A stretch of DNA of 64,000 nt from an uncultured Pseudomonadales bacterium (GCA_964457085.1 CAYWDM010000001.1:45082-109081), one strand, 5' to 3'. Positions 9,372 through 34,284 are shown, counted from the stretch's first letter. Notes: generated from the letters alone by a model not told the origin. Numbers and translations are program-made.

Positions 9372-9394
9372 CCGAGTACGATATACTATCAACC

Positions 9395-10309: not shown

Positions 10310-10315
10310 GAATTA

Positions 10316-11149
10316 ATGAGAAAAACAGCAATTACAGCAGTTATCATTGCCAAAAATGAAGCCGAGATGCTTCGAGGTTGTTTGAGTGGCTTGTCTTGGT
10401 GTGACAGTGTTTTGCTTATTGATAACGGATCAACAGATGAAACCGCCTCAATAGCTGAAAATTTTGGTGCCAAAATAATTCAATCAAAACACCTGTCTTT
10501 TGACAAATTGCGAACTGATGCACTGAAATATATTCAAACGCCGTGGGTATTTTATATTGATGCTGATGAGCGAGTAACTCCACAGCTAGCAAAGTCGATT
10601 GCGGTGCACCTTGAAACAGCTACACCTCCAACCAATGCATTTTCACTAATCCGTCAAAATATTTTTTATGGTCACAAAATGAAGTGGGGTGGCTGGCAAG
10701 ATGATAGAGTTACCCGAATTTTTAGACTACAAACGCTCACCAAGTGGAAAGGTAAAGTACACGAGAGTCCAGTTTTTGTTGGTCAAACGCAGCATTTGCC
10801 GTTGGCACTTATTCATCTCACTCACCGCAACACTACAGATGGATTATCAAAAACCATGGTTTGGACTAAAATCGAAGCAGAATTGTTGTTTTCTGCCGGT
10901 GTAAAACCTGTCACTGTCGGTACGATTATTAGAAAAATGGTGATGGAGTTTTGGAGACGTTCAGTTGTTTTCAAAGGCTGGAAAGATGGCCAGGTTGGAT
11001 TCATTGAGGCAATTGTCCAAGGAATAAATAAGGCATTAATTTACATACAAATCTGGGAATTACAACAAAAACCCAGTCTCAAAGAAACCTATACAGCGAT
11101 AGATGCTGACTTAAGTAATAAGTGGCAAACTGCCTCTTTGGAAAAGTAA
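10316..11149 (+). CDS. GT2 glycosyltransferase, WaaE/LgtF-like paralog
   Basis: TAVIIAKNEAEML...CDSVLLIDNGSTDETASIAENFGAKII...YIDADE. Confidence 0.8.
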   Translation: MRKTAITAVIIAKNEAEMLRGCLSGLSWCDSVLLIDNGSTDETASIAENFGAKIIQSKHLSFDKLRTDALKYIQTPWVFYIDADERVTPQLAKSIAVHLETATPPTNAFSLIRQNIFYGHKMKWGGWQDDRVTRIFRLQTLTKWKGKVHESPVFVGQTQHLPLALIHLTHRNTTDGLSKTMVWTKIEAELLFSAGVKPVTVGTIIRKMVMEFWRRSVVFKGWKDGQVGFIEAIVQGINKALIYIQIWELQQKPSLKETYTAIDADLSNKWQTASLEK

Positions 11150-11151
11150 GC

Positions 11152-12261
11152 ATGAGAATTGGTCTATATTCACCGTATGTGCCAAAACATTTTGGTGGTG
11201 GCGAAAAACATTTCTTTGATGTCGCGCTAGCACTCTCAAAAAAACATGAGGTGTTTGTTGGCATCCCAAGTAATAGCAATCAGCTGAGTGATAAAACTAG
11301 CAACTATATTCGAGAAAACTATAGTAAATTCCTCAATCGCTCACTGAAGCGAATTCATTTTTTGGCGTGCCCATTTGGAACAGATGCATTCTTCTTTAAC
11401 AAATTATTCTGGACTGGTCAATTTGATGCTTTTTATACAGTCACTGATGGCAGTCTTTTTTTTAGTTTAGCAAAACAAAATTACCTGCATATCCAGATCC
11501 CTTTTACAGACTCAAAAAAATCACTGATGGATCGAATGAAATTATCAATTTGGAGACACAAAAACACCAATTCGTACTTCACAAAACAGATCATAGAACA
11601 GTCTTGGAACGTCACCATCGACTCCGTGTTGCAGCCAATGGTTTCAGTTGAGCCGTTATTAATTAAACCAAGTGACCTACCACTCAAACAAAATATAATT
11701 CTGCATGTAGGTAGATTTTTCAGTCAATTGCATTGCAAGCGTCAAGATACTTTGGTGCAGATTTTCAGAGATTTGTTAAAAAAAAGACCAGAATTATCCG
11801 AAACTTGGAAACTAGTTCTCATTGGATCTGTTGAAGATCATCAATTTGCAAAAAAAGTTGAAAAGTCAGCCAAAGGATTACCGATTGAAATAATTCACAA
11901 CGTAGATCGAGATGATTTAAATAGTTGGTATAAAAAAGCTTCAATATATTGGCATGCTACAGGCTACGGTACTAATCCAGTTACCCAACCAGAAAAATCA
12001 GAGCATTTTGGAATTAGCACTGTTGAGGCGATGGCAGCAGGGTGTGCTCCTGTAGTAATAAACTTAGGTGGTCAAACAGAGATCCTGGTTGGTGAACTTA
12101 CTCAATATCTGTGGAACACCACAGCAGAGTGTGTGGATACAACCCTACAACTAATAGATGACCCTGCAAAAATGATTCTTGTCCAGCTGATGGCACAACA
12201 ACGTGCTAAACAATTCAATCAAGCCCGTTTTGATCAACAAGTCCTTGATATGGTAGAGTAA
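11152..12261 (+). CDS. GT4 (Glycos_transf_1) glycosyltransferase
   Basis: C-terminal EHFGISTVEAMAAGCAPVV block. Start at ATG 11152 (MRIGLYSPY), 2 nt after the upstream stop. Confidence 0.8.
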   Translation: MRIGLYSPYVPKHFGGGEKHFFDVALALSKKHEVFVGIPSNSNQLSDKTSNYIRENYSKFLNRSLKRIHFLACPFGTDAFFFNKLFWTGQFDAFYTVTDGSLFFSLAKQNYLHIQIPFTDSKKSLMDRMKLSIWRHKNTNSYFTKQIIEQSWNVTIDSVLQPMVSVEPLLIKPSDLPLKQNIILHVGRFFSQLHCKRQDTLVQIFRDLLKKRPELSETWKLVLIGSVEDHQFAKKVEKSAKGLPIEIIHNVDRDDLNSWYKKASIYWHATGYGTNPVTQPEKSEHFGISTVEAMAAGCAPVVINLGGQTEILVGELTQYLWNTTAECVDTTLQLIDDPAKMILVQLMAQQRAKQFNQARFDQQVLDMVE

Positions 12262-12265: not shown

Positions 12266-13153
12266 ATGCCAAATACAGTGCAAGTCTCCGCGCTTATTCC
12301 CAACTACAATGGCCGAAAACTACTGGCTCGATACCTTCCAAGTGTTTTAAATACACTTCGTAGTGGCGATGAATTGTTGATTGTTGATGATACCAGTACT
12401 GATGACAGTGTTGAGTGGCTGTGCAAAGTGTACCATGCAACTAAATTGCCAGTTTCAAAGGACTATGAGTTGTTTAGGGGCGATGCAATTAATGATGATA
12501 AAAAATCAATTGCAGTAACAATTGTTAAAAACCTTAAAAATTTGAGATTTGGTGCCAGTTGCAACCGAGGTGTTGAATTGGCAAAAGGCGAATTAATTTT
12601 TCTGTTAAACAGCGATGTTTCTCCACATGAAGGTTCACTCAAACAATTGCTTACCCACTTTGGGCCAACTCCTGAGAGCTCAAAAGTCTTTGGTGTTGGC
12701 TGCCTTGAGATTGAAACAGCCCAAAATGGCTCGTATGCAGGCAAGCAAAAAATCTGGTTCGAGCGTGGCTTATTTATGCACGCCAAGGCTGATGATTTTT
12801 CCTTTGGTGAAACTGCATGGGTAACTGGCGGCAGTGGCTTATTTAGTCGTAAAAAGTGGTTGGAGATTGGTGGTTTTGACCCACTTTTCTATCCGGCTTA
12901 CTGGGAAGACATTGATTTATCGTTTCAAGCCAGAAAATTAGGATATCAGATCTTATTCGATCCCAAGGCAATTGTTGATCATAACCACGAAACGACGAAC
13001 CAGACTGTATTTGGACAACAAAAAATTGCTGAAATGAGTTGGAAAAATGGCATTAAATTTGCCTGGAAAAACACGACCACAGTTCAAAAAATAGCATTTA
13101 TACTTTGGCAACCATTCTGGTGGTGGCAACGAGCTAAGCGTCGTCATGCTTAA
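12266..13153 (+). CDS. GT2 glycosyltransferase
   Basis: VSALIPNYNGRKLL...LLIVDDTSTDDS...LLNSDV GT2 blocks. Confidence 0.8.
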   Translation: MPNTVQVSALIPNYNGRKLLARYLPSVLNTLRSGDELLIVDDTSTDDSVEWLCKVYHATKLPVSKDYELFRGDAINDDKKSIAVTIVKNLKNLRFGASCNRGVELAKGELIFLLNSDVSPHEGSLKQLLTHFGPTPESSKVFGVGCLEIETAQNGSYAGKQKIWFERGLFMHAKADDFSFGETAWVTGGSGLFSRKKWLEIGGFDPLFYPAYWEDIDLSFQARKLGYQILFDPKAIVDHNHETTNQTVFGQQKIAEMSWKNGIKFAWKNTTTVQKIAFILWQPFWWWQRAKRRHA

Positions 13154-14738
13154 AAAAATACCGAGCTCTTATCTGTGGGTCGCCCTCATACTAGTGATTG
13201 CAGTTATCACCCGTTTTTACCAACTGGGTAACATACCCCATGGCATGACCTGGGACGAAGCAGCTATTGGCTACAATGGTCATGCAGTACTCACCACACG
13301 TCGAGATGAATGGCTCAAAAAACTACCCATCTCTTTTCGTTCATTTGGTGACTACAAGGCACCACTAGCAATTTATTTGAATGGATTTTTTACACTGCTA
13401 TTTGGCAACACAGTTTTTGCAGTTAGATTGCCTTTTGCCCTTATTGGACTATTAGCAATTGCTGGCTTGTACCTAGTCAGCTATGAATCACTGTTAAGAA
13501 GCACTTCAGCCACCACCGCTTCACAAAAAATAATTCGTATTAGCGTCATTTCAATTGCACTACTAGCGATTTCTCCTTGGCATATTCATTTTAGTAGAGT
13601 TGGATTTGAGTCAGGAATTGCATTGGGATTATTACTCTGTGGAGTAGGGTTGATGCTGCGAGGACTACGTCTAGAGAAATTTTTACCACTTTTTTTGGGT
13701 ATTTCCTGTGCTGCTGCAAGCTTGTATGCCTATCACAGTACCAAGATAGCACTGCCATTTCTCATGCTATTGTTGCTATGGTTTGTGGGATGGAAAAATA
13801 TCTTCAAGAAAAAATATTTTTGGTTGTTTGTCTGGGGTGGAATTACACTACTGCCACTGATATATGACCTCATTTGGGGACAAGGATTAACACGAGCTAG
13901 TACCCTAATTTTTAACAAAGGCTTTCCAATCAGTATAGTTTTAGCCACGATTTGGCAAAATTGGCTGAACCAGCTATCAATGAACTTTCTTTTCTTTGGC
14001 TGGACCGATACCCTCAGACATGGCACTGGACGATTTGGAGTCTTATATCTCATCGACTTAATTCCCCTAATTTGGTTGATGGTTAGAATGTTGACTCACA
14101 GAGTTAAATCAAATTTTTTAACTCAGCCAAAAATGATATCAGCAATTATTTTCTGGACATCTTGGCTAGTGATAGGATTACTGCCAGCTGTACTTGGAGA
14201 TATTACTCCACATCCTAATCGGTCATTACTTGCACTCCCAGGTTTTCTAATGCTAATTGTGATTGGCTGGGATGATTTGCTAGATACTCTCTCGTTAAAA
14301 AAAGCATGGTATTTGATTGGCATTATATATGTGCTACTAACTGCTAATTTTCTTCGTTACTACTTCACTACGTATGCAAAAAATAGTGCGGCTGATTTCT
14401 TTGACGGATATGTTGAAGCTGCAACTATAGCCAACCAAATTGAAAAAAATGGCTGGGAAAATAGCAAACCTGAAAAGATTTTGTTTACCTCTGACTATGG
14501 ACAGCCATATATTTTTGTATTGTTTGTAAAGAACCTCAATCCAATTTGGTATCAGGGTGGTGAGCTCTCAAAATACGAGTTCACTGACAAGATCAATACC
14601 GGAGATCTAATTCGTCCAAATACATTAATCGTGGCAAGTGAAATGGATGACATTCCACTTGAATGGGCAAATTATGTAGTTCATCGAAGCGATGGAGAAG
14701 TTGCATTCAAAATCTACTACCCCAAAGCAAAACCATAA
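13146..14738 (+). CDS. ArnT/PMT-like GT-C membrane glycosyltransferase (PMT_2-type)
   Basis: N-terminal TM, then the WDEAAIGYNGHAVL loop motif, FGDYKAPLAIYL, AVRLPFALIGL, multiple TM helices, and a later TPHPNRSL periplasmic-loop motif shared with the paralogs. Confidence 0.8.
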   Translation: MLKKIPSSYLWVALILVIAVITRFYQLGNIPHGMTWDEAAIGYNGHAVLTTRRDEWLKKLPISFRSFGDYKAPLAIYLNGFFTLLFGNTVFAVRLPFALIGLLAIAGLYLVSYESLLRSTSATTASQKIIRISVISIALLAISPWHIHFSRVGFESGIALGLLLCGVGLMLRGLRLEKFLPLFLGISCAAASLYAYHSTKIALPFLMLLLLWFVGWKNIFKKKYFWLFVWGGITLLPLIYDLIWGQGLTRASTLIFNKGFPISIVLATIWQNWLNQLSMNFLFFGWTDTLRHGTGRFGVLYLIDLIPLIWLMVRMLTHRVKSNFLTQPKMISAIIFWTSWLVIGLLPAVLGDITPHPNRSLLALPGFLMLIVIGWDDLLDTLSLKKAWYLIGIIYVLLTANFLRYYFTTYAKNSAADFFDGYVEAATIANQIEKNGWENSKPEKILFTSDYGQPYIFVLFVKNLNPIWYQGGELSKYEFTDKINTGDLIRPNTLIVASEMDDIPLEWANYVVHRSDGEVAFKIYYPKAKP

Positions 14739-16768
14739 TGGCAACAGCACTATTTTCACTCACTGATTGGCAATTCTGGGGTTTTACCTGTTTGCAGATA
14801 GCATTTGTTTTGATTGTGCTGCGTGGCCTTGGTTGGATTATTTTGCATAAACTGCAGTTCCAAGCCACTTCTTTTTTTCAGTCGGCATCCTGGCACAGTG
14901 TATTGATTTTCGTAGGACTAGCTTTCTTTACTTTGACAGCTTGGGCATTGGGTGAGCTTGGTCAAAGACACCTGCAATGGTTTGTAATTCTACTTGGATG
15001 TTTAGGCACCGTACTTGAATTTTTACAGAGACGTAGAAATAAAAAAGCTGAGAAACTGCATTTTAAGCTAAATATAAACGACAAAATGTTGGGAATAGCG
15101 ATACTCTTTGGAGTTGCATTACAACTGATTGCTATCGTGACCTCAGGAATCCGTGTGGGTGATACTGCTGACTTTTATTTTACCAATGCAGGGGATGGCA
15201 TGATGCATTTGGCTTTTTCCAGATCATTAATTGCTACATACCCGCCTGTTCGACCGGAATTAGCTAACATACCACTCACTAATTATCATTTTTTCACTGA
15301 TTTATTAATGGCTGAGCAATCAAGACTATTACAAATACCGATAGCACATAGTTTTTTCCAGTTTTGGCCGGTACTCTTGGCTTTAGGTAGTGCCATTTTA
15401 ATCATCAGCATTGTTCAACAATTCAGTAAGAGTGTCTCGATTACCTGGATTAGTCTGTTTTTCTGGTTTTTTAATGGAGAACTAGGCTATCTATTTAGCC
15501 TACTGATTCATCATACATTTAACTGGAATGTGGCAACTATAGAAAACTCAGCCGATCAATTTTTAAACATGCCACAAATGTTTGCCAAGACTTTAGTCTT
15601 TGCTGTGTATTGGCTGGGATTGTATTGGTACAAAAACTTGAAAATGAAAACCGACCAAAACATTTTTTTGGCAATTGTCTTACTAATTGCAGCTGCCACG
15701 GGTTATAAAATTTACTTTGGTTTATTTACTTTGGCACTAGTGATTGGCTTGTGGTTAGCTCAATTACTTACAAACCTACAGTCAAAAACCGCATTGGCTC
15801 ATCTGCAAATCCTAGGTAGACAATTTTTTTGGCTGTTGGTTGGATGCCTGTTTGTAGTAATGATATTAAGATCAGTGAGTACTGGATCAGGAAAACTCGG
15901 CTGGTACCCACTTGTCTGGCCAAAACTGTTAATCAGTAGTGAACATCTAGATCTCAAGGATCTCGCCAATCGACTGCAAATAAATGAGTATGCCGGAAAC
16001 ACTCCAAAAATTGTGCTCTTTAATAGCTTGGTTTTATTAATTGGGCTTTTAGCACTGTTTGGAACCAAACTGGTGGGAATGTGGTATTTTGTTCAATCAA
16101 AAACACTCAATTGGTACAGGGCAGTTTTGCTATCGGCACTCGTATCTGCAGGCATAATTGGACTCAATACTCTGCAAGATCCTGGTGGCTTTAATACCTA
16201 TAATTTCTTGCTTGTGGCCATGCAGCCACTATTTTTCCTCACGGTTTTGGTTTTAGACCAGTTATGGCAACAAAAAAAGATCCACACAAAAGTTATAGTC
16301 GTTGCGATTTTACTACTGGGATCTGTAAGACCAATCGCAAATTATCACAAATATTTTTCTGCGATTACTCACCATAGAGTTGAAGCTGCCTATTCAACCT
16401 CAGAGCTTCTAGCTCTTGATTGGATAGCAAATAATACACCAGTAGATACATTGGTCCAGGCATCACCACAAAGTGGTAAATCACGTCAGAACTCGTATAT
16501 CAGTTTTTTTGCGAAGCGTCCCACATATCTGGCTTTGGAAAGTATTGCCCAGTCACATGGAATCACTACCAAACAAAAAAGAATCGCATTGGAGTCTGCA
16601 GTTAGTGTCTCGAACTATGAGCTACTAGCTGCCAACATGCGTCAACTCGGTATAAACTATCTGTACGTTGAACATGAGTCCAGTCAAACAAAGATACTAG
16701 ACCTACTTGGAATTACGGAACACACAGTATTTACAAATGATGCAGCAACGATTGTGGTCTTCAACTAA
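14738..16768 (+). CDS. large polytopic membrane protein of unknown function
   Basis: Start taken at the ATG at 14738, overlapping the upstream stop as TAATG (MATALFSL...). About 14 TM helices; no recognisable catalytic motif. Confidence 0.45.
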   Translation: MATALFSLTDWQFWGFTCLQIAFVLIVLRGLGWIILHKLQFQATSFFQSASWHSVLIFVGLAFFTLTAWALGELGQRHLQWFVILLGCLGTVLEFLQRRRNKKAEKLHFKLNINDKMLGIAILFGVALQLIAIVTSGIRVGDTADFYFTNAGDGMMHLAFSRSLIATYPPVRPELANIPLTNYHFFTDLLMAEQSRLLQIPIAHSFFQFWPVLLALGSAILIISIVQQFSKSVSITWISLFFWFFNGELGYLFSLLIHHTFNWNVATIENSADQFLNMPQMFAKTLVFAVYWLGLYWYKNLKMKTDQNIFLAIVLLIAAATGYKIYFGLFTLALVIGLWLAQLLTNLQSKTALAHLQILGRQFFWLLVGCLFVVMILRSVSTGSGKLGWYPLVWPKLLISSEHLDLKDLANRLQINEYAGNTPKIVLFNSLVLLIGLLALFGTKLVGMWYFVQSKTLNWYRAVLLSALVSAGIIGLNTLQDPGGFNTYNFLLVAMQPLFFLTVLVLDQLWQQKKIHTKVIVVAILLLGSVRPIANYHKYFSAITHHRVEAAYSTSELLALDWIANNTPVDTLVQASPQSGKSRQNSYISFFAKRPTYLALESIAQSHGITTKQKRIALESAVSVSNYELLAANMRQLGINYLYVEHESSQTKILDLLGITEHTVFTNDAATIVVFN

Positions 16769-18461
16769 ACTAAGCTTTTTAATTACTTTGGTTGTAATGA
16801 GTGTGGCTGTGGTGCTACGGATCTGGCAGCTGTCCTCAATACCGTCATCACCGTATTGGGAAGAAACTGCACTTGGATACGATTCATATAGTTTACTAAA
16901 AACTGGAAAAGACCATCACGGTACTAACTGGCCGATTGTAGCCTTCGAATCATTTGGTGACTGGAAGCCAAGTGGTTATTTTTATGCGGCACTACCTAGC
17001 ATCGCTGTGTTTGGTTTATCAACATTTGCGGTGAGATTGCCCAGTGCCCTCGCTGGAGTTGGCATTGTCTGGTTATTCCCCAGTTTTTTTAGCTTACTTT
17101 TTAAAAAGAAGTTAAGTGTATATGAAACAGCATGGTTGCGAATAATTGCAGCAATCTGTCCATGGTTATTAGTTTTTTCCAGGGCAGCCTGGGAAGTAAA
17201 TCTAGCCACATTTTTGCTTTTAGCTGGCAGCATATTCTGGCTTAAAGCCTTGCAGGCTCAATCGATCAAGAAAAATTGGCTTCAAGCAATTGTGGCAGTT
17301 TGTTGTTTTGCAGCTGCTGCATATACGTACCATGCACTGCGAATCATTGCACCACTTTGGGCCATGGGTATTGGCTTAGATTGGTTGTTGGACTCACACC
17401 AAAAGAAATCACACTTTATTAAAAACAGCTTGCAGTTACTTTTGTGGGGCACAATCTGCGTACTATTATTACTGCCAATTGTTTTACAGCTGCAAAATAA
17501 AGCGGTTTCGCAACGCTTCCAAGAAACAAGCATTTTTTCAAGCCCTGATAGTGTTCTTACCAGCAATCGATTACGTGAGGAACAGGGGAATACTGTGTGG
17601 GCACGTGTGTTGCACCACCGATATCGGTATCAAGGTGCAGTTATTTTAGATAAAGTGCTACAGCATGCTTCGTTTAACTTTTTATTTGTAACCAGTGATA
17701 GTAATGCTCGCCACCGTGGCAGCATGTATGGTCAACTGCTATACCCAGATGTCGCATTAATTTTACTTGGAATTTTAGCTGTAATTTACACCAGAAACAC
17801 TCGAGGATGGTTACTTGGGTGGCTGTGGTTTGCGAGTGTATTACCAGCGAGTGTGAGTACAGCGACTCCACATGCACTGAGAACATTGCCATCAGCTCTG
17901 TTGTGGCTCAGTTTGAGTGGCTATGGTTTTTTTACACTCAAAGACTGGCTGTTTAAAGTGCTGAAACCACCAGTTCTTTCAAGCGTGATACTCGGTGCCA
18001 TTGTCCTGTTCTATGTTGGATTTGGGTGGCTGTGGTGGCACTCATATAGCACACTGTACCCAGTCAAATTTACCAGTGATTGGCAATATGGCTACTCACA
18101 AATGATAGAAACAACTTTGGCTCTCGGTAAGAATGCTACTGAGCTGCCAATTGTGATATCCAGACAGCAAGGTAGACCTGCCATGTTCTGGTGGTTCTAT
18201 ACCAAAACTGATCCAAAACGCGTTCAAGTTCTAGATCCTATTACTACTAAAGACCAAGGCGAGTTTCTAGTATTTGAAAATATACAATTTACTCGAGCAA
18301 TGGGTGATTTTAAACCGAACTCAATCATTGCATTGAGTGAAATGGAGTGGAGCAACATCAAAAAAGACCATCCGAGTTGGGAGCTATCAGAGCAATCAAC
18401 CATTCGTAATCCAGAGCATGAAATTGTTTGGTTGGTAGGCATTTTAAAAGAAACAAAATAA
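16737..18461 (+). CDS. ArnT/PMT-like GT-C membrane glycosyltransferase (paralog)
   Basis: YWEETALGYDSYSLL, FESFGDWKPSGYFY, AVRLPSALAGVGIVW and STATPHALRTL motifs. Start set at MMQQRLW (16737) so that TM1 begins at the N-terminus as in the paralogs; the ORF in the track begins at 16707. Confidence 0.72.
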   Translation: MMQQRLWSSTKLSFLITLVVMSVAVVLRIWQLSSIPSSPYWEETALGYDSYSLLKTGKDHHGTNWPIVAFESFGDWKPSGYFYAALPSIAVFGLSTFAVRLPSALAGVGIVWLFPSFFSLLFKKKLSVYETAWLRIIAAICPWLLVFSRAAWEVNLATFLLLAGSIFWLKALQAQSIKKNWLQAIVAVCCFAAAAYTYHALRIIAPLWAMGIGLDWLLDSHQKKSHFIKNSLQLLLWGTICVLLLLPIVLQLQNKAVSQRFQETSIFSSPDSVLTSNRLREEQGNTVWARVLHHRYRYQGAVILDKVLQHASFNFLFVTSDSNARHRGSMYGQLLYPDVALILLGILAVIYTRNTRGWLLGWLWFASVLPASVSTATPHALRTLPSALLWLSLSGYGFFTLKDWLFKVLKPPVLSSVILGAIVLFYVGFGWLWWHSYSTLYPVKFTSDWQYGYSQMIETTLALGKNATELPIVISRQQGRPAMFWWFYTKTDPKRVQVLDPITTKDQGEFLVFENIQFTRAMGDFKPNSIIALSEMEWSNIKKDHPSWELSEQSTIRNPEHEIVWLVGILKETK

Positions 18462-18462
18462 C

Positions 18463-18482
18463 AGTAGTCACTGTTTTTACTT
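18463..18482 (+). terminator. weak rho-independent terminator candidate downstream of the GT-C gene
   Basis: ACAGT-agtc-ACTGT hairpin followed by TTTTT. Confidence 0.3.
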
Positions 18483-18521
18483 GACCTTGAAATACCGCAA
18501 TTTTTTAGTCTCTTTTGATTT

Positions 18522-18527
18522 ATAATT
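18522..18527 (+). promoter_or_regulatory. candidate -10 hexamer (TATAAT) for argS
   Basis: Perfect TATAAT 22 nt upstream of the argS ATG; the -35 region is weak. Confidence 0.25.
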
Positions 18528-18548
18528 ACCACTTGAATCGAGTTAACC

Positions 18549-20402
18549 ATGAATTCAATTGCCAACACTATTACAACTGCACTACATGCCGTTTGGAGTC
18601 AGTTTTTTTCTGAGCTAGAATTTCCCAAAAATTCAGTGATAACTCGTCCCGAGGACTGGCAGTTTGGAGAGTATACGGTTAATTTAGCGATGGTGGCATT
18701 TCCACTGTTACCTGCTGAACTCAAAGCAAAATCACCTAACCCCAGGGCATTAGCTCAGTTATTTGCAGATGAACTCAAAAACGCACTCCCCACAGTCACA
18801 ATCACAGTTGCAGGGCCAGGGTTTATCAACTTTTCATTAAGTTCCAGCGACTTAATTAGTGAGGTTAATTCTGTATCCTCACAAACTAGTTTGCCGACAA
18901 AATTTTCCAACAAACAAGTTATTGTTGAGTTCACTGATCCAAACCCTTTCAAAGAATTTCATATTGGTCATCTCTATAGCAACATCGTTGGTGAATCTAT
19001 CTCAAGATTATTGGAAGTTGGTGGAGCACAGGTACATCGAGCCTGCTATCAGGGTGATGTCGGCATGCATGTGGCAAAATCAATTTGGGGTTTACGATCA
19101 AAGCTAGTAACTGACCAGCTAACCTTGTCTGAACTGGAATTACGCACGTTACCTGATAGAGTGAAATATCTCGGTCAAGCGTATGCTCTCGGTGCAACTG
19201 CATATGAAGAGCAGCCAACTGCAGCTGAAGAAATCAAAGATATTAATTACATGGTATTTATCTTTGGTCAAGAAAATTTAATGAAAGTGATGGATTGGCA
19301 GCCACAAGTTGACTATCGCTCAAAACTTTCTAGTGACCCCAAAAATCTGGATGAGATTCGAGAGCTGTATGTGAAAGGTAGAGCATGGAGCTTGGCATAT
19401 TTCGAAACAATTTATGCACGGCTGGGCACCAAGTTTGAAGAGTATTTTTTCGAAAGTTTGGTTGGAGAGCTAGGCTTACAATTAGTGAGAGAATCACAAG
19501 CAAAAGGTATTTTTGTCGAGAGTCAGGGTGCAGTGATCTATCCAGGTAGTCAGAAAAAACTGCATGACCGAGTCTTTATCAACTCTCACGGATTGCCAAC
19601 CTACGAAGCAAAAGAGCTAGGACTTGCTCCAGAGAAGTATCGACGAATACCCTATGACCACTCAATTATCATCACTGGTAATGAAATCGTTGAGTATTTT
19701 AAAGTACTACTAACTGCACTCAGTGAAATCCATCCAGAACTTGCTGCCAAGACAACTCACTTGTCCCATGGAATGGTACGTTTGCCAGACGGCAAAATGT
19801 CGAGTCGAACTGGCAAGATTCTCACCGGAGAATGGTTACTAGATGAATCAAAAGCTGAAGTTAAAAAGATTCTCGATGTATCTCAAGCAGAGGGCAAGTT
19901 AAAGCTTAGTACAGAGGAGCTTGATCACACTGCAGAATTGATTGGCCAAGCCGCTATTAAGTTTGCATTATTATCAAGTCGACTGGGTAAAGATATTTCA
20001 TTTGATTTTACTAACTCACTATCATTTGCTGGTTTTTCTGGCCCATACTTACAATACACAGTGACACGCTGTCAGAGTGTGCTTTCAAAAGCAGCCGCAC
20101 AGCAGATTCAATTCACCAAAAAACTGGCTGAAACTGAAGCTATAACTGCAGACGAACGATTAGTACTTATTCAGTTATCGAGAGCCCCAGAAGTTACAAC
20201 TCAAGCAATCTCCAATCTATCACCACACATTATCGCTGAATATTTGTTTGCATTGTCTCAATCATTTAACTCGTTTTACACCAACCAGCAAATTCTAAAC
20301 TCAGAGCATTCAAGTTTTAGACTAGCATTAACTGAGATGGTGGCAAAGACTGTGACTAGTGGTCTGTACTTACTAGGAATTACATCTCCTGAGCGGATGT
20401 AG
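18549..20402 (+). CDS. argS: arginine--tRNA ligase
   Basis: Class I aaRS HIGH motif (EFHIGHLYSNIVGE) and KMSK-like motif (GKMSSRTGK); 617 aa with a DALR-like C-terminal anticodon-binding region. Confidence 0.92.
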   Translation: MNSIANTITTALHAVWSQFFSELEFPKNSVITRPEDWQFGEYTVNLAMVAFPLLPAELKAKSPNPRALAQLFADELKNALPTVTITVAGPGFINFSLSSSDLISEVNSVSSQTSLPTKFSNKQVIVEFTDPNPFKEFHIGHLYSNIVGESISRLLEVGGAQVHRACYQGDVGMHVAKSIWGLRSKLVTDQLTLSELELRTLPDRVKYLGQAYALGATAYEEQPTAAEEIKDINYMVFIFGQENLMKVMDWQPQVDYRSKLSSDPKNLDEIRELYVKGRAWSLAYFETIYARLGTKFEEYFFESLVGELGLQLVRESQAKGIFVESQGAVIYPGSQKKLHDRVFINSHGLPTYEAKELGLAPEKYRRIPYDHSIIITGNEIVEYFKVLLTALSEIHPELAAKTTHLSHGMVRLPDGKMSSRTGKILTGEWLLDESKAEVKKILDVSQAEGKLKLSTEELDHTAELIGQAAIKFALLSSRLGKDISFDFTNSLSFAGFSGPYLQYTVTRCQSVLSKAAAQQIQFTKKLAETEAITADERLVLIQLSRAPEVTTQAISNLSPHIIAEYLFALSQSFNSFYTNQQILNSEHSSFRLALTEMVAKTVTSGLYLLGITSPERM

Positions 20403-20437
20403 TTTTTACTGACAGAGAGCTGTTTTTTCAGGGGTGA

Positions 20438-22126
20438 GTGTGTATGATATTGAGTATGTTCAAACGAGCCATAGATTGGTGGTTACTCGGAATCTTGATC
20501 ATAGCTGTGGTAGTTCGCAGTCTTTTTTTTGGACAGCAACCTTCAGGTACTTACTGGGATGAAACTGCAATTCTAGTTGATGCCAAAGCATTAGCTGAAA
20601 CTGGCCGTGATATGCATGGCTTGAGTGGTTGGCAATTAATCTTTCCCTCTTATGGTGATTACAAAATGCCGGTGTTGATCTGGTTGGCTGCAGCCAGTGT
20701 CAAATTTTTTGGTGTTTCAGCTTGGGCCCTGCGACTTCCCAGTTTGTTGGCAGGAATTGCAACAGTCTGGGTAAGCTATGCACTTGCCAAACGAGTCTGG
20801 CCAAATCAGCCACATGCAGCCCATTTTTCAGCCCTCGCTGTTGCACTCGCCCCTTGGGACATTATCTTTTCAAAAACAGCTTTTGAGGGACATGTAGCTC
20901 AGTTTTTTTTGGCACTGTCTGCGTTACTATTGCTATCCAAAAAAAATCGCTGGCTGACTAGCGTACTCGGTGCTTTTTTTGGAGTGGTAGCTACGTATAC
21001 CTATTTTAGCGTCAGATTTGTTTGGCCAATAGTTTTGCTTGGTGTCTGTGCAATTATCTGGAGTGAACTGCCGCTCAAACAAAAATGGAATCTTCGCTCG
21101 ATGCTAAAGCTTGGTTGGTTACAGTTACTATTACCCGCCGTGTTTTTTATTGTTTTGATGATTCCGATGTCAAAGTCACCTTTCTACGATATTTCAAATG
21201 CTTTTAGACTCAATGCGGATTCTGTTCTCAAAAGCCAAGATTGGCCACTGATTTCAAATCAAGATAGAAAAATTGCAGGCAATCAATTTCTTGACAGATT
21301 TGCCTTTCATCGCCACTGGTTAATGGCACAAGCGTTATTTGAGAATTATGGAGATCATCTTAATCTCAGTTATTTATTTTTAAACGGTGATAGTAACTTA
21401 CGTCATGGGACGGGAAGCCACGGTGTGTTTTTACTCATTTGGCTGCCAGCGTTTGTATTGGGTTGGATAGTAATTTGGAGTAAATCACCAGTTGTGGGTG
21501 CCAGTTTACTACTATGGTGGCTTGCAGCTTTGTTACCAGCATCGGTTCCAGAAACCACCCCACATGCATTGAGATCGCTCAACGCTTTAGTCCCACTGTG
21601 TTTGGTGATGGGGCTTGGTGCTAGTTCGATTTTGAGTTGGATCACCCAACTGAATAAAAAAATACCCATCATTGCAGTTAGCTTGGTAATCGCATCAACT
21701 GGGCTGATGGTGGTAAGCATTTGGGATTTTTTGTTGTATTACCACACCAGCTATCAGCAGTTGGCTTACCAAAGTTGGCAAAGTGATTTTAATCGCACCA
21801 TTAATACCATTCTTTTTTTTAGAAAACAAAACCAGCCGGTATATATCGAACATAGTGATGACAAGTTTTTTCTATGGACCCTGCAAAGTGTAGACTTTAG
21901 ACACAAACCAGCCAATATGGTTGAGAAAAATTTTCAATTTACTCAAATTGGTGACCTTCATTTTGGAAAAATTGCACTGAATAATCTACATGAATATTCT
22001 GGTGCATTAATTCTCATCAAACCTGAACGGTTGACTGAACTAACAGCCAACCAAAACCTTCAGCCACAAATCTATCAAACCATAACTGATGCTTCAGGCA
22101 GCTATGTACTAGCTCAAATGCCATGA
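20438..22126 (+). CDS. ArnT/PMT-like GT-C membrane glycosyltransferase (paralog)
   Basis: YWDETAILVDAKAL, FPSYGDYKMPVLIWL, ALRLPSLLAGIATVW and VPETTPHALRSL motifs. A GGGGTGAG RBS precedes the 20438 ATG. Confidence 0.75.
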   Translation: MCMILSMFKRAIDWWLLGILIIAVVVRSLFFGQQPSGTYWDETAILVDAKALAETGRDMHGLSGWQLIFPSYGDYKMPVLIWLAAASVKFFGVSAWALRLPSLLAGIATVWVSYALAKRVWPNQPHAAHFSALAVALAPWDIIFSKTAFEGHVAQFFLALSALLLLSKKNRWLTSVLGAFFGVVATYTYFSVRFVWPIVLLGVCAIIWSELPLKQKWNLRSMLKLGWLQLLLPAVFFIVLMIPMSKSPFYDISNAFRLNADSVLKSQDWPLISNQDRKIAGNQFLDRFAFHRHWLMAQALFENYGDHLNLSYLFLNGDSNLRHGTGSHGVFLLIWLPAFVLGWIVIWSKSPVVGASLLLWWLAALLPASVPETTPHALRSLNALVPLCLVMGLGASSILSWITQLNKKIPIIAVSLVIASTGLMVVSIWDFLLYYHTSYQQLAYQSWQSDFNRTINTILFFRKQNQPVYIEHSDDKFFLWTLQSVDFRHKPANMVEKNFQFTQIGDLHFGKIALNNLHEYSGALILIKPERLTELTANQNLQPQIYQTITDASGSYVLAQMP

Positions 22127-23703
22127 AAAAAATTCTCACTGTATTACAAGCAGAGTGGTTTATTTTATGTTGCATCACACTCATTGCACTGGTAGTGAGA
22201 TTCTGGCACTTAGATACATTGCCTGCAGCTCTCAACAGAGATGAGGCTGCACTTGGATACAACGCCTGGATGCTACAGACAATCGGCAAAGATGAGTGGG
22301 GGAAATCGTGGCCTCTCACCCTAAAGTCATTTGGTGACTATAAGTTACCTGGCTATCCATTAGTAACAATTGTAAGTTTTAGTTTTTTCGGTCGCAGTGA
22401 CTGGAGTGTGCGTTTCCCATCAGCATTAGCTGGCACCCTGCTTCCTCTCGCTGTTTGGTACTTAACCAAGCAATTACAATGGAAAAAAAACAAACGATTA
22501 CTTGCAGCTGTGCTTGTGGCACTACTGCCATTTTCGATATTTTATTCAAGAATGGCATTTGAGGCTAACGTTGCTCTGACACTAATGGTTTGGGTATTTG
22601 GCTTGTTACTTAGGTTCATGCAACAGAAATCAACGTTGATGATCTTGTTGCCACTAAGTATTTGGTTAGCTGCTATTTTTACGTACAACACACCACTTTT
22701 ATTGACCCCATTCCTAATCATTGGATTACTGGTTTGGTTTGGAAAAAATAAAAAACCTCAAACTTTTTTCGCCGTAATCGGCCTATCTTTGGTACTGTTA
22801 ATTTCTACAGCACTACTGTGGCAATTAAATAGTCAAAAGGCCGGAATCAGTATTTTTACTGATCCAACAATCGAGACAAAAATCATCGAAGTCTACACTG
22901 CTAAATCCGGAATTGATCGGTTGTTGGCAAGTCGGTACGTCGTCTATGCTGAAATGCTCAACCAACATTTTTGGGAGAGTTGGTCAAGTAGTTTCTTGGT
23001 AACTCATGGGGGAAGTCACCCTTGGCACACTGTTCCGGGGACAGGTCACATCACTTGGTTTGGGTATCTATTTGGTTGTTTGGGAGTCTTATTGAGTAGC
23101 ATCTCAATCATTCAGACACTACTTAAAAAACAAGATTTATCCCGTACTCAGCGAGGCGAAGGCTTACTGATTTGGTTATTACTTGCCGGCTTAGCACCTT
23201 CTGTTGTGACGGTAGATTCACCACATGCCACTAGAAGCCTCATTTTTATGTTATTACTCGCTGTATTTTCAGCTGTGGGTGTAAGTAATTTTTATGTGTT
23301 TCTCAAAAAAACCGCTCCAAGTGTTTTACTGGCTGCGACAGTTGGCCTCTGGCTATTTGGAACCGGCACTACTGGAAAATATTTAGTCAGCTATTTCACT
23401 GAGTATCCAAATCTGCAGACAATCTTTCAGCCCGGGTTAGAGGTAGCACTCTCACAATTAAAGAAAACAGATAAACCAGTATTAGTTGCTGGTGATGGCT
23501 ATACCTATATTTCAATCGCTTGGTATTTACCGGTTAAACCACAAGCGTTTCTAGACACGATTACCAGACATAAAGTAGATACAATCGGATTTGAACTGGG
23601 CAGATCAGTGGATGTATTTACCATTAGACCAGACTTTAAAACTCCTGATGTCACTAATTCGGCCCAACTAGAATGGACTGCCAGTGGGTGGGTAACTCAC
23701 TAG
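22123..23703 (+). CDS. ArnT/PMT-like GT-C membrane glycosyltransferase (paralog)
   Basis: NRDEAALGYNAWML, LKSFGDYKLPGYPLV, SVRFPSALAGTLLPL and VDSPHATRSL motifs. ATGA overlap with the upstream gene. Confidence 0.75.
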   Translation: MKKILTVLQAEWFILCCITLIALVVRFWHLDTLPAALNRDEAALGYNAWMLQTIGKDEWGKSWPLTLKSFGDYKLPGYPLVTIVSFSFFGRSDWSVRFPSALAGTLLPLAVWYLTKQLQWKKNKRLLAAVLVALLPFSIFYSRMAFEANVALTLMVWVFGLLLRFMQQKSTLMILLPLSIWLAAIFTYNTPLLLTPFLIIGLLVWFGKNKKPQTFFAVIGLSLVLLISTALLWQLNSQKAGISIFTDPTIETKIIEVYTAKSGIDRLLASRYVVYAEMLNQHFWESWSSSFLVTHGGSHPWHTVPGTGHITWFGYLFGCLGVLLSSISIIQTLLKKQDLSRTQRGEGLLIWLLLAGLAPSVVTVDSPHATRSLIFMLLLAVFSAVGVSNFYVFLKKTAPSVLLAATVGLWLFGTGTTGKYLVSYFTEYPNLQTIFQPGLEVALSQLKKTDKPVLVAGDGYTYISIAWYLPVKPQAFLDTITRHKVDTIGFELGRSVDVFTIRPDFKTPDVTNSAQLEWTASGWVTH

Positions 23704-23803: not shown

Positions 23804-24583
23804 ATGATTTCAGTGGTACTTGCAACCTACAATGAGTCTCAGAATTTGCCAAATTGTCTCAAGGCAGTTGCTTTTGCTGACGAAATTATTGTGGTTGATG
23901 GTCAATCAACAGACGACACAGTAGCAGTTGCAAAAAGTTTTGGTGCTCGAGTAATTAGCACCACCAACAAAGCCAACTTTCACATCAACAAACAAATGGC
24001 AATTGATGCAGCCAAATTTGATCTAGTTTTACAATTAGATGCCGATGAGATCGTCGATGAGCAACTCACTCGATTTATACTCAAAATTAATACTGATCCA
24101 AAGTTTGAACATACAAAAAATGCTTGGTGGATCAAACGAAAGAACTATTTGCTTGGTCGTTGGCTTTCTAAAGGTGGCCAGTATCCAGATCCCGTAATCC
24201 GATTGCTGCGACGTGGCAAAGCCAAACTCCCGATGAAAGACGTGCACGAACAAATGGTTGTTGAAGGAGAGATTGGATCTGCACAAGGACACTTATTACA
24301 CTATTCAAATCCAACTTTTTCCGATTACCTACGCAAATTTAATACTTATACCTCATTCAAAGCAACTCAATTAGCTGATGCAAAAATCATGCTAACGCCA
24401 GCAAACAGTTTTAGATACCTTTGTTGGCTTCCTAAGATCACTTTTTTGTCACTTTACATTAGACATCGAGGCTATGTAGACGGGGCAGCAGGATTTGTGT
24501 TTGCGTTAATGAGCGGGCTCCACCACGCAGTTAGCTACTTAAAGCTCTGGGAGATCAAAAACTATGGCAATCATACAGATTGA
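23804..24583 (+). CDS. GT2 glycosyltransferase, WaaE/LgtF-like paralog
   Basis: ISVVLATYNESQNL...VAFADEIIVVDGQSTDDTVAVAKSFGARVI...LDADE. A TATATAAT element lies about 15 nt upstream. Confidence 0.8.
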   Translation: MISVVLATYNESQNLPNCLKAVAFADEIIVVDGQSTDDTVAVAKSFGARVISTTNKANFHINKQMAIDAAKFDLVLQLDADEIVDEQLTRFILKINTDPKFEHTKNAWWIKRKNYLLGRWLSKGGQYPDPVIRLLRRGKAKLPMKDVHEQMVVEGEIGSAQGHLLHYSNPTFSDYLRKFNTYTSFKATQLADAKIMLTPANSFRYLCWLPKITFLSLYIRHRGYVDGAAGFVFALMSGLHHAVSYLKLWEIKNYGNHTD

Positions 24584-25619
24584 CACCAGCCCGCTTAATA
24601 CCGGTCATTCAATTAGGGGTATAGGCACATACACCAGGCTTTTAGTTGACGCACTGCAGACTCAGACTCAATTCACCATTCAGCTCACCGGTGAGTCAAA
24701 AAGCTTGAGTAAACCAGACTTAATTCACTATCCCTTTTTTGATTTGTTCAACGCCAGTATTCCACTGATTAAACGTGCTAAAAGAGTGGTTACCATTCAC
24801 GATGTTATTCCATTGTTGTTTCCTAAATACTATCCAGTTGGGAGACGAGGCAAACTTGCCTTATATCGTCAAAAGTTGATGCTCAATACTGTTGATGCGG
24901 TCATTACTGACTCAGCAGTTTCTAAACAAGATATTATTAGAGAATTATCGGTCCCAGATCATAAAATCACTGTAGTGCCACTTGCTGCCAACCCCGCACT
25001 AGAGGCAGTAGATGCGTCACAAATCAAGTTGGTACGTAAACAGTTTAACCTGCCTAAAGAGTATGTGTTGTATGTGGGCGACATTAATTACAACAAAAAT
25101 GTGCCACAACTCATCAAGGCAATGAAGTCATTACCTGAATCACTCGATTTAGTATTGGTTGGCAAAAACTTCTACCCACACGACATTCCTGAATGGCGGT
25201 GGATAGAGGCACAAATTGCACTCAGCAATGTTGTAAATCGGATCCATTTCATTACCACGGTGGCATCAGATGATACGTTGACTATGAGCTCACTGTATTC
25301 GGGAGCTATTTGTTATGTCCAACCGTCACTCTATGAAGGTTTTGGACTGCCAGTACTTGAGGCTATGCGTTGTAATGTGCCAGTCATTGCCAGCAATCGA
25401 GGATCACTTCCAGAGGTGGGTGGTGGCACAATCACGCTAACAGAACCCACTGCCGAAAGTTTTTCAACTGCGATAGCAGAAATACTAGACTGGTCAGACA
25501 CCCACTTAGAACAAAGTTTGCGAAAGCAACGTATTTGGTTAAAACATTTTTCGTGGCAGGAAACTGCTCTACAAACAGCTGCAGTGTACGCAAAAGTATT
25601 ATCTATAAAGAATCTATGA
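24564..25619 (+). CDS. GT4 (Glycos_transf_1) glycosyltransferase
   Basis: YVQPSLYEGFGLPVLEAMRCNVPVIASNRGSLPEV: canonical GT4 E-x7-E region. Confidence 0.85.
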   Translation: MAIIQIDTSPLNTGHSIRGIGTYTRLLVDALQTQTQFTIQLTGESKSLSKPDLIHYPFFDLFNASIPLIKRAKRVVTIHDVIPLLFPKYYPVGRRGKLALYRQKLMLNTVDAVITDSAVSKQDIIRELSVPDHKITVVPLAANPALEAVDASQIKLVRKQFNLPKEYVLYVGDINYNKNVPQLIKAMKSLPESLDLVLVGKNFYPHDIPEWRWIEAQIALSNVVNRIHFITTVASDDTLTMSSLYSGAICYVQPSLYEGFGLPVLEAMRCNVPVIASNRGSLPEVGGGTITLTEPTAESFSTAIAEILDWSDTHLEQSLRKQRIWLKHFSWQETALQTAAVYAKVLSIKNL

Positions 25620-28469: not shown

Positions 28470-28475
28470 AATACT

Positions 28476-34283: not shown

Positions 34284-34284
34284 T

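What the first reader, a model, noticed from the sequence alone, without database searches (positions are those of the whole stretch)
13146..23703. Expansion of five ArnT/PMT-like GT-C glycosyltransferases with conserved periplasmic-loop motifs
Four adjacent paralogs (13146, 16737, 20438, 22123) plus a divergent fifth (55187) share three motifs. The first is W/Y-(D/E)-E-(A/T)-A-(I/L)-GY after TM1. The second is FGDYK-x-P followed by (A/S)VR(L/F)P(S/F)ALAG. The third is a late (T/S)PH(A/P)xRSL loop: TPHPNRSL, TPHALRTL, TPHALRSL, SPHATRSL. This many GT-C enzymes in one locus implies several distinct lipid-linked-sugar transfer steps onto protein, lipid or polymer acceptors. PMT_2 proteins are usually single-copy, e.g. 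ArnT or actinobacterial Pmt.
Basis: partly seen in the sequence, partly recalled or inferred. Interest (0 to 1): 0.6.

Follow-up and report, generated by a model that had tools for sequence, protein, structure and literature searches.

The report
Conserved ArnT-like glycosyltransferase paralogs, Patescibacteria
Four ancient, intact copies of a membrane sugar-transferring enzyme (ArnT/PMT-like, GT-C fold) sit in a cell-envelope sugar-polymer gene cluster that is conserved across a whole group of ultra-small bacteria (Microgenomates), so this is an inherited, already-annotated enzyme family rather than a local gene expansion.

Summary
ORFs 13146-14738 (A), 16737-18461 (B), 20438-22126 (C) and 22123-23703 (D) are intact paralogs, 25-31% identical (BLASTP E 1e-16 to 1e-39), and they share the quoted motifs. 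The fifth ORF (55187-56812) is a much more distant relative, seen only by profile comparison (97.5% probability). It keeps the DE motif but has DFQ in place of GDYK and PKR in place of PH..R.

They are GT-C glycosyltransferases. Two reach the Pfam PMT_2 cut-off. The AlphaFold models (pLDDT 92 and 88) match STT3/PglB, Pmt4, ArnT and ALG9/12. A family HMM aligns the motif-2 lysine with the ArnT lysine I remember as phosphate-binding (K85).

The "expansion" reading fails. In 82 Microgenomates species each paralog has its own ortholog clade (40-45% identity within a clade, 23-29% between). The order GT2-A-B-C-D-GT2-GT4-YfhO-like recurs (A-B-C-D in 36 of 59 loci; C next to D in 63 of 69). All motif residues are near-invariant in every clade.

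PMT_2 enzymes are also commonly multi-copy in Gram-positive bacteria.

The neighbouring genes point to extracytoplasmic building or decoration of a wall glycopolymer: an LCP ligase, a Wzx-like flippase, an ABC-2 exporter, and several GT2/GT4 enzymes. In nine species the upstream GT2 is fused to A. Donor, sugar and acceptor are inferred, not shown. This is a new member of a known kind, of modest interest.

The parts
13146..14738 (+). Paralog A, 530 aa, GT-C (PMT_2-like) glycosyltransferase
   Evidence: PMT_2 22.4 bits, below the 26.1 cut-off. BLASTP to B, C, D at 1e-21 to 1e-25. 37 orthologs keep DE, SFGD.K, PH..R invariant. Its start overlaps the stop of the upstream GT2 by 8 nt. It is fused to that GT2 in 9 species.
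14738..16768 (+). X, 676-aa polytopic membrane protein of unknown family, inserted between A and B
   Evidence: No Pfam or NCBIfam hit. Only 9 homologs in 5.8 billion proteins. No profile relation to A-D and no PDB sequence hit. Absent from L003 and L004.
16737..18461 (+). Paralog B, 574 aa, GT-C glycosyltransferase
   Evidence: No Pfam hit of its own, but BLASTP 6e-39 to C. 50 orthologs have invariant motif residues.
18549..20402 (+). Arginyl-tRNA synthetase embedded in the cluster, not part of the glycosylation system
   Evidence: The ortholog in L001 and L003 carries Arg_tRNA_synt_N, tRNA-synt_1d and DALR_1. It lies between B and C in only 9 of 59 loci.
20438..22126 (+). Paralog C, 562 aa, GT-C glycosyltransferase
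   Evidence: PMT_2 31.6 bits, above the cut-off. 63 orthologs. Directly upstream of D in 63 of 69 loci.
22123..23703 (+). Paralog D, 526 aa, GT-C glycosyltransferase
   Evidence: PMT_2 35.7 bits; PMT 22.0 bits against a 22.7 cut-off. AF2 model pLDDT 92.2, pTM 0.92. Foldseek hits to GT-C enzymes at E 5e-10 to 2e-5. ATGA overlap with the stop of C.
55187..56812 (+). E, 541 aa, remote fifth relative forming a separate GT-C subfamily
   Evidence: No Pfam hit itself, but most orthologs carry PF13231 and are named GT39 or mannosyltransferase. hhalign to the A-D profile 97.5%, E 6.9e-12. AF2 pLDDT 88; Foldseek hits ALG12, ALG9, DPY19, ArnT and PglB.
12266..13153 (+). GT2d, soluble family-2 glycosyltransferase functionally linked to A
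   Evidence: Glycos_transf_2 and Glyco_tranf_2_3. Single-ORF GT2d-A fusions of 800-920 aa in 9 of 28 loci.
8427..12261 (+). GT2a, GT2b, GT2c and GT4: the conserved upstream cytoplasmic glycosyltransferases
   Evidence: Pfam; conserved order in relatives.
23804..29423 (+). Conserved downstream block: GT2e, GT4, YfhO/PTPS_related-like GT-C (25535-27292), polytopic Z (27276-28469) and an NAD epimerase
   Evidence: Pfam. The ortholog in L003 carries PTPS_related. GT2e follows D in 67 of 78 loci; Y lies downstream in 66 of 67.
2476..8370 (.). LCP ligase (2476-3624, -), second YfhO-like protein (3646-5394), Wzx-type flippase (5381-6835), and a GT-C-like protein (6817-8370)
   Evidence: LytR_cpsA_psr 88 bits, Polysacc_synt_3 174 bits. 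PTPS_related 33 bits. 6817 versus 51707 BLASTP 1e-8.
29806..30585 (+). ABC-2 (Wzm-like) permease; the partner ATPase is at 38215-38952
   Evidence: Pfam ABC2_membrane and ABC_tran.
51707..53146 (-). Further remote GT-C relative, 479 aa
   Evidence: hhalign of its family profile against A-D: 92.9%, E 3.8e-7 over the N-terminal 190 residues.

Best explanation
A, B, C and D are four anciently diverged, catalytically intact GT-C (GT-C_A, PMT_2/ArnT-like) glycosyltransferases from a Patescibacteria (Microgenomates) genome. They belong to a vertically inherited, tightly packed cell-envelope glycan gene cluster: GT2-GT2-GT4-GT2-A-B-C-D-GT2-GT4-YfhO-like-Z-epimerase. An LCP ligase, a Wzx-type flippase and an ABC-2 exporter lie nearby.

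Proposed mechanism (inferred). A glycan is started and built on undecaprenyl phosphate in the cytoplasm by the GT2 and GT4 enzymes, then exported. On the outer face of the membrane it is extended or decorated by A-D. Each would use a polyprenyl-monophosphate sugar donor and add a different sugar or linkage. The LCP enzyme would then attach the product to peptidoglycan.

Inferred roles within each enzyme:
- The Asp-Glu pair at the start of the first external helix is the catalytic base.
- The D.K lysine and the late PH..R loop hold the donor phosphate.
- The [FY]SR..[FW]E glutamate occupies the second external loop, like ArnT D158.

Shown: homology, fold, intactness, orthology, synteny, and the K-to-K85 alignment. 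Inferred: donor, sugars, acceptor, and residue roles.
For: Family and fold:
- Pfam PMT_2 for C and D.
- AF2 model at pLDDT 92 with Foldseek probability 1.0 to STT3/PglB/AglB, Pmt4, ArnT, ALG9 and Emb.
- The sub-HMM hits Cm ArnT at 24.7 bits and Ec ArnT at 13.9 bits, against shuffles of the Ec ArnT fragment at 0.24 +/- 1.27 (max 8.6). It aligns K of GDYK with ArnT K85 and VRLPSALAG with ArnT ARLAVALSG.
- ArnT numbering was checked against the 5ezm alignment, which runs +3 relative to the numbering I recall from the ArnT structure paper.

Ancient and functional:
- 1:1 positional orthologs at 37-59% identity, against 22-33% between paralogs.
- Four monophyletic clades.
- Motif residues are near-invariant in 37, 50, 63 and 81 orthologs.
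- Synteny counts and overlapping start/stop codons.

Context:
- LCP ligase, Wzx-like flippase, GT2/GT4 enzymes, epimerases and an ABC-2 transporter.
- GT2d-A fusions in 9 species.

Precedent: PMT_2 GT-C enzymes (GacL, GtlB, CsdD/F, GtsC) glycosylate Gram-positive wall polymers from C55-P-sugars, with soluble GT-A partners and Wzx-type flippases in some systems (PMC8035078). Several GT-C enzymes act on one exported polymer in mycobacteria (PMC11127046).
Against: - No ArnC/GtrB-type polyprenyl-phosphate sugar synthase lies in the conserved cluster. The two clear ones (34285-35214, 44129-45052) sit in the variable low-GC island next to other polytopic proteins.
- No GtrA-type flippase was identified.
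- The family profile finds no PDB sequence at E <= 1, and no NCBIfam model reaches its cut-off.
- The best Foldseek hits are oligosaccharyltransferases, not ArnT.
- DE-to-DE equivalence with ArnT is not recovered by pairwise sequence alignment.
- No priming phosphoglycosyltransferase was found among the ORFs I scanned; about eight of the 51 were not scanned.
- The acceptor is entirely unknown.
Confidence: 0.6

Rival explanations
1. A-D are protein O-glycosyltransferases, like actinobacterial Pmt (GT39). They would glycosylate secreted, S-layer or pilus proteins from polyprenyl-P-mannose or similar donors, with each paralog serving a different substrate class.
For: DE motif after TM1. D scores 22.0 bits on Pfam PMT, just under the 22.7 cut-off. 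Public annotations read 'glycosyltransferase family 39' and 'mannosyltransferase'. Foldseek hits Pmt4 at E 2.4e-6. A conserved secreted protein is encoded nearby at 30612-32018(-).
Against: PF02366 is not reached by any paralog, and no PMT_4TMC or MIR domain appears. The context is dominated by polymer-type genes: LCP ligase, Wzx, ABC-2 and many GT2/GT4. Database names are automatic.
Confidence: 0.2
2. A-D modify or elongate a membrane glycolipid or lipoglycan (LTA-like, or lipomannan/LAM-like) rather than a peptidoglycan-linked polymer.
For: ArnT itself acts on a lipid. PMT_2 enzymes such as GtlB and CsdF glycosylate LTA. YfhO-like proteins are in the same cluster.
Against: No LtaS-type synthase was noticed among the ORFs I scanned. 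An LCP ligase sits at the cluster edge, which favours a wall-linked product.
Confidence: 0.12
3. A-D are oligosaccharyltransferase-like enzymes that transfer a preassembled oligosaccharide en bloc from undecaprenyl-pyrophosphate.
For: The top Foldseek hits for D are STT3, AglB and PglB (E 5e-10 to 1e-6, TM 0.51-0.57). A Wzx-type flippase is present.
Against: No WWDYG-type motif in any of 231 orthologs. The C-terminal external domain is only about 90 residues. The PMT_2 and ArnT sequence signal, including the lysine aligned to K85, fits monophosphate donors.
Confidence: 0.06
4. The paralogs are recent duplicates or decaying pseudogene-like copies.
For: None found.
Against: Paralogs are 23-29% identical, while each has orthologs at 37-59% in other species. 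All are full length with invariant motifs.
Confidence: 0.01

Closest known systems
PMT_2-domain GT-C enzymes of Gram-positive multi-component transmembrane glycosylation systems (GacL, GtlB, CsdD/CsdF, GtsC, YkcB)
   Same: Same Pfam domain and polytopic architecture. Encoded in cell-wall polymer loci alongside GT-A enzymes, a Wzx- or GtrA-type flippase and YfhO-like relatives, with several copies per genome (PMC8035078).
   Different: In those systems each GT-C is usually paired with its own membrane-linked C55-P-sugar synthase. Here four GT-C genes lie together without an ArnC/GtrB-type partner, and one of them is fused in some species to a soluble WbbL-like GT2. No biochemical data exist for this family.
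ArnT (GT83, Und-P-L-Ara4N:lipid A transferase; PDB 5EZM/5F15)
   Same: GT-C_A fold (Foldseek E 1.9e-5). Similar size with a small C-terminal periplasmic domain. A DE pair after TM1. The Lys of D.K.P aligns with ArnT K85 of the FEKP motif. An acidic residue lies near the D158 position.
   Different: No NCBIfam ArnT model is hit. The family profile finds no ArnT sequence in the PDB. The HEHxQR loop (H265/H267/R270) has no demonstrable counterpart. These organisms have no outer membrane or lipid A (my own knowledge).
Mycobacterial arabinogalactan/LAM GT-C set (EmbA/B/C, AftA-D)
   Same: Several paralogous GT-C enzymes, partly in tandem, act on an exported polymer that is then ligated to peptidoglycan by an LCP enzyme (PMC11127046). 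Foldseek hits to Emb and AftD.
   Different: Emb and Aft proteins are about twice as long and carry carbohydrate-binding modules. Their donor comes from a UbiA-type synthase, which was not seen among the ORFs I scanned.
Protein O-mannosyltransferases (GT39, Pmt)
   Same: DE motif in loop 1, a near-threshold PF02366 match for D, and 'GT39' names in public annotation.
   Different: Below the PMT cut-off, with no PMT_4TMC or MIR domains. The gene context is polysaccharide-type.

Membership tests
GT-C fold (GT-C_A class) glycosyltransferases | Polytopic membrane protein whose predicted structure superposes on solved GT-C enzymes | tested here: met
   D: pLDDT 92.2; Foldseek probability 1.0 to STT3, AglB, PglB, Pmt4, ArnT, ALG9 and Emb; TM 0.43-0.57. 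E: pLDDT 88; hits to ALG12, ALG9, DPY19, ArnT and PglB.
GT-C fold (GT-C_A class) glycosyltransferases | Conserved acidic residue(s) in the first extracytoplasmic loop just after TM1 | tested here: met
   D40-E41 start the first helix after TM1 in the model. DE is invariant in 37, 50, 63 and 78-of-81 orthologs.
GT-C fold (GT-C_A class) glycosyltransferases | Uses a lipid-phosphate-linked sugar donor | not testable with these tools
   Needs an enzyme assay.
Pfam PMT_2 (PF13231) | Score at or above the gathering cut-off of 26.1 bits | tested here: inconclusive
   D 35.7 and C 31.6 (met). A 22.4 (below). B and E have no hit. Most orthologs of D and E carry PF13231.
ArnT (GT83) equivalog | NCBIfam ArnT model reached, or significant sequence match to solved ArnT | tested here: not met
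   No ArnT model among the NCBIfam hits. The profile against PDB sequences gives no hit at E <= 1. hhalign to E. coli ArnT gives 4% probability.
ArnT (GT83) equivalog | Lysine equivalent to K85, which I recall as phosphate-binding (role from memory) | tested here: met
   The sub-HMM alignment starts at K of GDYK, opposite Cm ArnT K85 and Ec K61. Scores are 24.7 and 13.9 bits against a shuffle maximum of 8.6, the shuffles being of the E. coli fragment.
ArnT (GT83) equivalog | HEHxQR loop (H265, H267, R270) | tested here: inconclusive
   It is not aligned by HMMER. GG.HPWH (D residues 297-302) and PH..R (367-371) are candidate counterparts by position only.
Protein O-mannosyltransferase (GT39, Pfam PMT PF02366) | PF02366 at or above 22.7 bits, plus a PMT_4TMC C-terminal module | tested here: not met
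   D scores 22.0 bits and the others have no hit. No PMT_4TMC appears.
Oligosaccharyltransferase (GT66, STT3/PglB/AglB) | WWDYG-type motif in a large C-terminal external domain | tested here: not met
   0 of 231 orthologs carry the motif. The C-terminal domain is about 90 residues.
Agl23-like subfamily (TIGR03663) | Score at or above 126 bits | tested here: not met
   D 43.4 bits and A 21.3 bits, over the N-terminal part only.

The most novel reading that the evidence does not exclude
The cluster is a Microgenomates-wide, lineage-defining extracytoplasmic assembly line. At least six GT-C enzymes would take part: the four ancient ArnT-like paralogs, a YfhO-like enzyme and Z. Together they would build a so-far undescribed wall-linked glycopolymer, in a way comparable to mycobacterial arabinogalactan. 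The GT2d-A fusion would mark a coupled enzyme pair in which a soluble GT-A domain is tethered to the GT-C enzyme that works with it.
Probability: 0.3. Interest if true: 0.6.

Novelty: new member of a known kind. Interest (0 to 1): 0.33.

Why it matters
Patescibacteria have very small genomes, and almost nothing is known experimentally about their cell envelope. A roughly 20-kb cluster rich in GT-C enzymes, conserved in dozens of Microgenomates species, marks a probably important surface glycan. It also gives defined targets for study: four paralog clades with invariant residues, and a natural GT2-GT-C fusion. For the scan itself, the result corrects the reading. This is an inherited and already-annotated enzyme family, not an unusual local expansion.

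Tried and rejected
- Single-sequence and profile searches of the D family against PDB sequences found nothing useful.
- hhalign of the family profile against single E. coli ArnT was weak, at 4% probability.
- The full-length HMM against ArnT aligned only TM2-TM6, with p 5e-4.
- Pairwise alignment of the first loop with ArnT did not recover DE-to-DE above shuffles. That equivalence is therefore reported as positional only.
- hmmalign did not force the N-terminal alignment.
- X (14738-16768) was tested as a possible sixth paralog and rejected.
- Eight literature searches were run; the six aimed at CPR/Patescibacteria/Microgenomates found no paper on this cluster.
- The pseudogene/recent-duplicate idea and the oligosaccharyltransferase idea were considered and rejected or down-weighted.


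Full report
**What is in the sequence.** The window is a gene-dense stretch with about 41% G+C and a 31% G+C island at roughly 32-49.5 kb. ORFs A (13146-14738, 530 aa), B (16737-18461, 574 aa), C (20438-22126, 562 aa) and D (22123-23703, 526 aa) are all on the + strand. They are polytopic membrane proteins, with 10-12 hydrophobic segments by a simple hydropathy count. They are clearly homologous, at 25-31% identity and BLASTP E 9e-16 to 6e-39.

C has ILV rather than GY after DETA, and D has R rather than W/Y before DE. I add a fourth shared motif, [FY]SR..[FW]E.

The four genes are not strictly adjacent. A 676-aa membrane protein X (true start 14738, a one-base overlap with the stop of A) separates A from B. 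Arginyl-tRNA synthetase separates B from C. Start and stop codons overlap at GT2d/A (8 nt), A/X (1 nt), X/B (32 nt) and C/D (ATGA), which indicates co-transcription.

**The fifth protein.** E (55187-56812) is only 19% identical to A in the multiple alignment. Its best BLASTP E against the four is 0.08, and it has no Pfam hit of its own. Its orthologs mostly carry PF13231 and are named 'glycosyltransferase family 39' or 'mannosyltransferase'.

A profile-profile comparison of the E family with the A-D family gives 97.5% probability, E 6.9e-12, over 425 columns. In that alignment DE pairs with DE. GDYK pairs with DFQ, so the lysine is replaced by an invariant glutamine. PH..R pairs with an invariant PKR. 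The AlphaFold model of E (pLDDT 88) matches ALG12, ALG9, DPY19, ArnT and PglB. E is therefore a real but remote relative that forms its own subfamily.

**What the proteins are.**
- Pfam PMT_2 is above its cut-off for D (35.7 bits) and C (31.6), just below for A (22.4), and absent for B. D also scores 22.0 on PMT against a cut-off of 22.7.
- No NCBIfam model reaches its cut-off.
- A 44-sequence profile finds no PDB sequence at E <= 1.
- The AlphaFold model of D is confident (pLDDT 92.2, pTM 0.92).
- Foldseek places it with probability 1.0 among GT-C enzymes: STT3/AglB/PglB (E 5e-10 to 1e-6, TM 0.51-0.57), Chaetomium Pmt4 (2.4e-6), ArnT (1.9e-5), then ALG9, Emb and AftD.
- None of 231 orthologs has a WWDYG-type motif, and the C-terminal external domain is only about 90 residues. 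They are therefore not oligosaccharyltransferases.

**Do the motifs match the ArnT/PMT catalytic loop?** I took E. coli ArnT from NC_000913. I aligned it with the Cupriavidus ArnT chain 5EZM, whose chain index runs +3 relative to the residue numbering I recall from the ArnT structure paper. That fixes D55-E56 in GPDEGRY, E84-K85 in YFEKP, D158 in NTLD, H265/H267/R270 in HEHWQR, and Y345 in KLPGY.

An HMM of the TM1-TM3 region, built from 231 A-D orthologs, hits Cupriavidus ArnT at 24.7 bits and E. coli ArnT at 13.9 bits. Five hundred shuffles of the E. coli fragment gave 0.24 +/- 1.27, with a maximum of 8.6. The alignment begins exactly at the lysine of GDYK, opposite ArnT K85. It pairs VRLPSALAG with ArnT ARLAVALSG. 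So motif 2 is the ArnT FEKP/TM3 signature. From memory of the ArnT structure paper, K85 contacts the undecaprenyl phosphate.

The full-length HMM alignment places the [FW]E glutamate within three residues of ArnT D158.

For motif 1 the match is positional only. DE starts the first external helix right after TM1, 34 residues before the lysine, compared with 30 in ArnT. This is where GT-C enzymes carry their proposed catalytic Asp (PMC11127046). Pairwise alignment of the loop did not recover DE-to-DE above shuffles.

**Age and conservation.** The closest homologs are all Patescibacteria of the Microgenomates group: Pacebacteria, Woesebacteria and Beckwithbacteria. In three relatives fetched by exact protein look-up, every paralog has a positional ortholog at 37-59% identity, against 22-33% between paralogs.

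Across 82 species-representative loci:
- The four groups form essentially monophyletic clades. Mean identity is 40-45% within a clade and 23-29% between clades.
- C lies directly upstream of D in 63 of 69 loci.
- A-B-C-D occur in that order in 36 of 59 loci with at least 7 kb of upstream sequence.
- GT2e follows D in 67 of 78 loci.
- A YfhO-like gene lies downstream in 66 of 67 loci.
- DE, S[FY]GD.K, R.P...G, SR..[FW]E and PH..R are near-invariant within each of the four clades.

The duplications therefore predate the divergence of these lineages, and all four copies are under purifying selection. This is not a local expansion and not decay.

**Context and likely function.** The conserved cluster reads GT2a-GT2b-GT2c-GT4-GT2d-A-(X)-B-(ArgS)-C-D-GT2e-GT4-Y (YfhO/PTPS_related-like)-Z (polytopic)-epimerase-ABC-2 permease. 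Upstream lie an LCP ligase, a second YfhO-like protein, a Wzx-type flippase and a further GT-C-like protein. RmlD- and dehydratase-type genes flank it.

This is the gene set of a secondary cell-wall glycopolymer pathway. PMT_2-domain GT-C enzymes are known to glycosylate such polymers from C55-P-sugars on the outer face of the membrane in Gram-positive bacteria. Several occur per genome, and some systems use a soluble GT-A enzyme and a Wzx-type flippase (PMC8035078). In mycobacteria several GT-C enzymes act on one exported polymer (PMC11127046).

I therefore propose that A-D each add a distinct sugar or linkage to an exported, wall-bound glycan. A useful clue is that GT2d and A form a single 800-920-aa ORF in 9 of the 28 loci where they are adjacent. 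This links A functionally to that GT2.

Weak points:
- No ArnC/GtrB-type donor synthase, GtrA-type flippase or priming enzyme was found in the conserved part.
- GT2d looks WbbL-like rather than DPM1-like.
- The acceptor is unknown.

Protein O-glycosylation, lipoglycan modification and en-bloc transfer remain as rivals, in decreasing order of likelihood.

**How many GT-C proteins are there?** More than five. The family of 51707-53146(-) matches the A-D profile at 92.9% probability, E 3.8e-7, over the N-terminal module. 6817-8370 is related to it (BLASTP 1e-8). 3646-5394 and 25535-27292 are YfhO/PTPS_related-like. The low-GC island carries two ArnC/PgfS-type synthases, each next to a large polytopic protein. 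X is unrelated to A-D and restricted to close relatives.

**Novelty.** Public annotation already calls these proteins GT39 or ArnT-family glycosyltransferases. The fold and the general mechanism are well known, and multi-copy PMT_2 sets are ordinary. What appears undescribed in the searched literature is the conserved four-paralog cluster in Microgenomates and the GT2-GT-C fusions. I rate this a new member of a known kind, of modest interest.

Noticed in passing
window 32300-49600: A low-GC island (31% against 41-45%) carries GNAT, DegT aminotransferase, GT4s, methyltransferases and the ABC ATPase (38215-38952). It also holds two classical donor-synthase/GT-C-like pairs. The first is an ArnC/PgfS-type GT2 at 34285-35214(-) next to polytopic 35280-36968(-). 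The second is an AglJ/DPM-like GT2 at 44129-45052, plus a LAB_N-methyltransferase at 45046-45954, next to polytopic 46479-48542(-). In relative L001 the ABC ATPase follows the permease much more closely. The island looks like a variable, horizontally acquired glycan-decoration region.
   Followed up: partly
L004:2706-5195, and L005, L018, L019, L023, L043, L044, L060, L083: The ortholog of GT2d (window 12266-13153) and paralog A are one continuous ORF of 800-920 aa in nine species. This is a natural GT2-GT-C fusion.
   Followed up: yes
window 51707-53146 (-); relatives P0253, P0256, P0327, P0267: Homologs of this GT-C-like protein occur as 780-1008-aa proteins with one or two N-terminal GT2 domains. 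N-terminal GT2 fusion to polytopic GT-C-like proteins therefore recurs in these lineages. The family also has invariant cysteines in its C-terminal external domain.
   Followed up: partly
window 14738-16768: X is a 676-aa polytopic protein wedged between A and B. Only 9 homologs exist in the 5.8-billion-protein collection. It has no Pfam, NCBIfam or PDB match. Strongly conserved motifs include NA.DGMMHLAF, FPPVRPE, PLTNYHYFTDL and ENSADQFLNMPQMFA. Its function is unknown.
   Followed up: partly
window 18549-20402: Arginyl-tRNA synthetase sits inside the glycosyltransferase cluster. It lies between B and C in only 9 of 59 related loci, so it is a lineage-specific insertion of a housekeeping gene.
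   Followed up: partly
L032, L041, L046, L053, L055, L056, L063, L084: A rearranged version of the cluster, with order B-D-C-Y followed by GT2a-GT2b-GT2c-GT4, recurs in about eight species.
   Followed up: no
record titles of L005, L008, L010, L011, L027, L058 and many others: Many MAG records carrying this Patescibacteria-type cluster are titled 'uncultured Pseudomonadales', 'Vitreimonas', 'Methylococcaceae' or 'Limisphaerales'. These are probably mislabelled or contaminated bins.
   Followed up: no
window 30612-32018 (-): A 468-aa protein with an N-terminal signal-like sequence and no Pfam hit. It is conserved at the same position in relative L001. It is a possible surface protein and a conceivable glycosylation target.
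   Followed up: no
window 49586-50572 (-): An LPG_synthase_TM (PF03706) family membrane protein lies at the edge of the low-GC island.
   Followed up: no
window 59166-61384: RuvC-, RuvA- and RuvB-like genes, judged from their sequences only, follow the glycosyltransferase region. This is ordinary housekeeping context.
   Followed up: no
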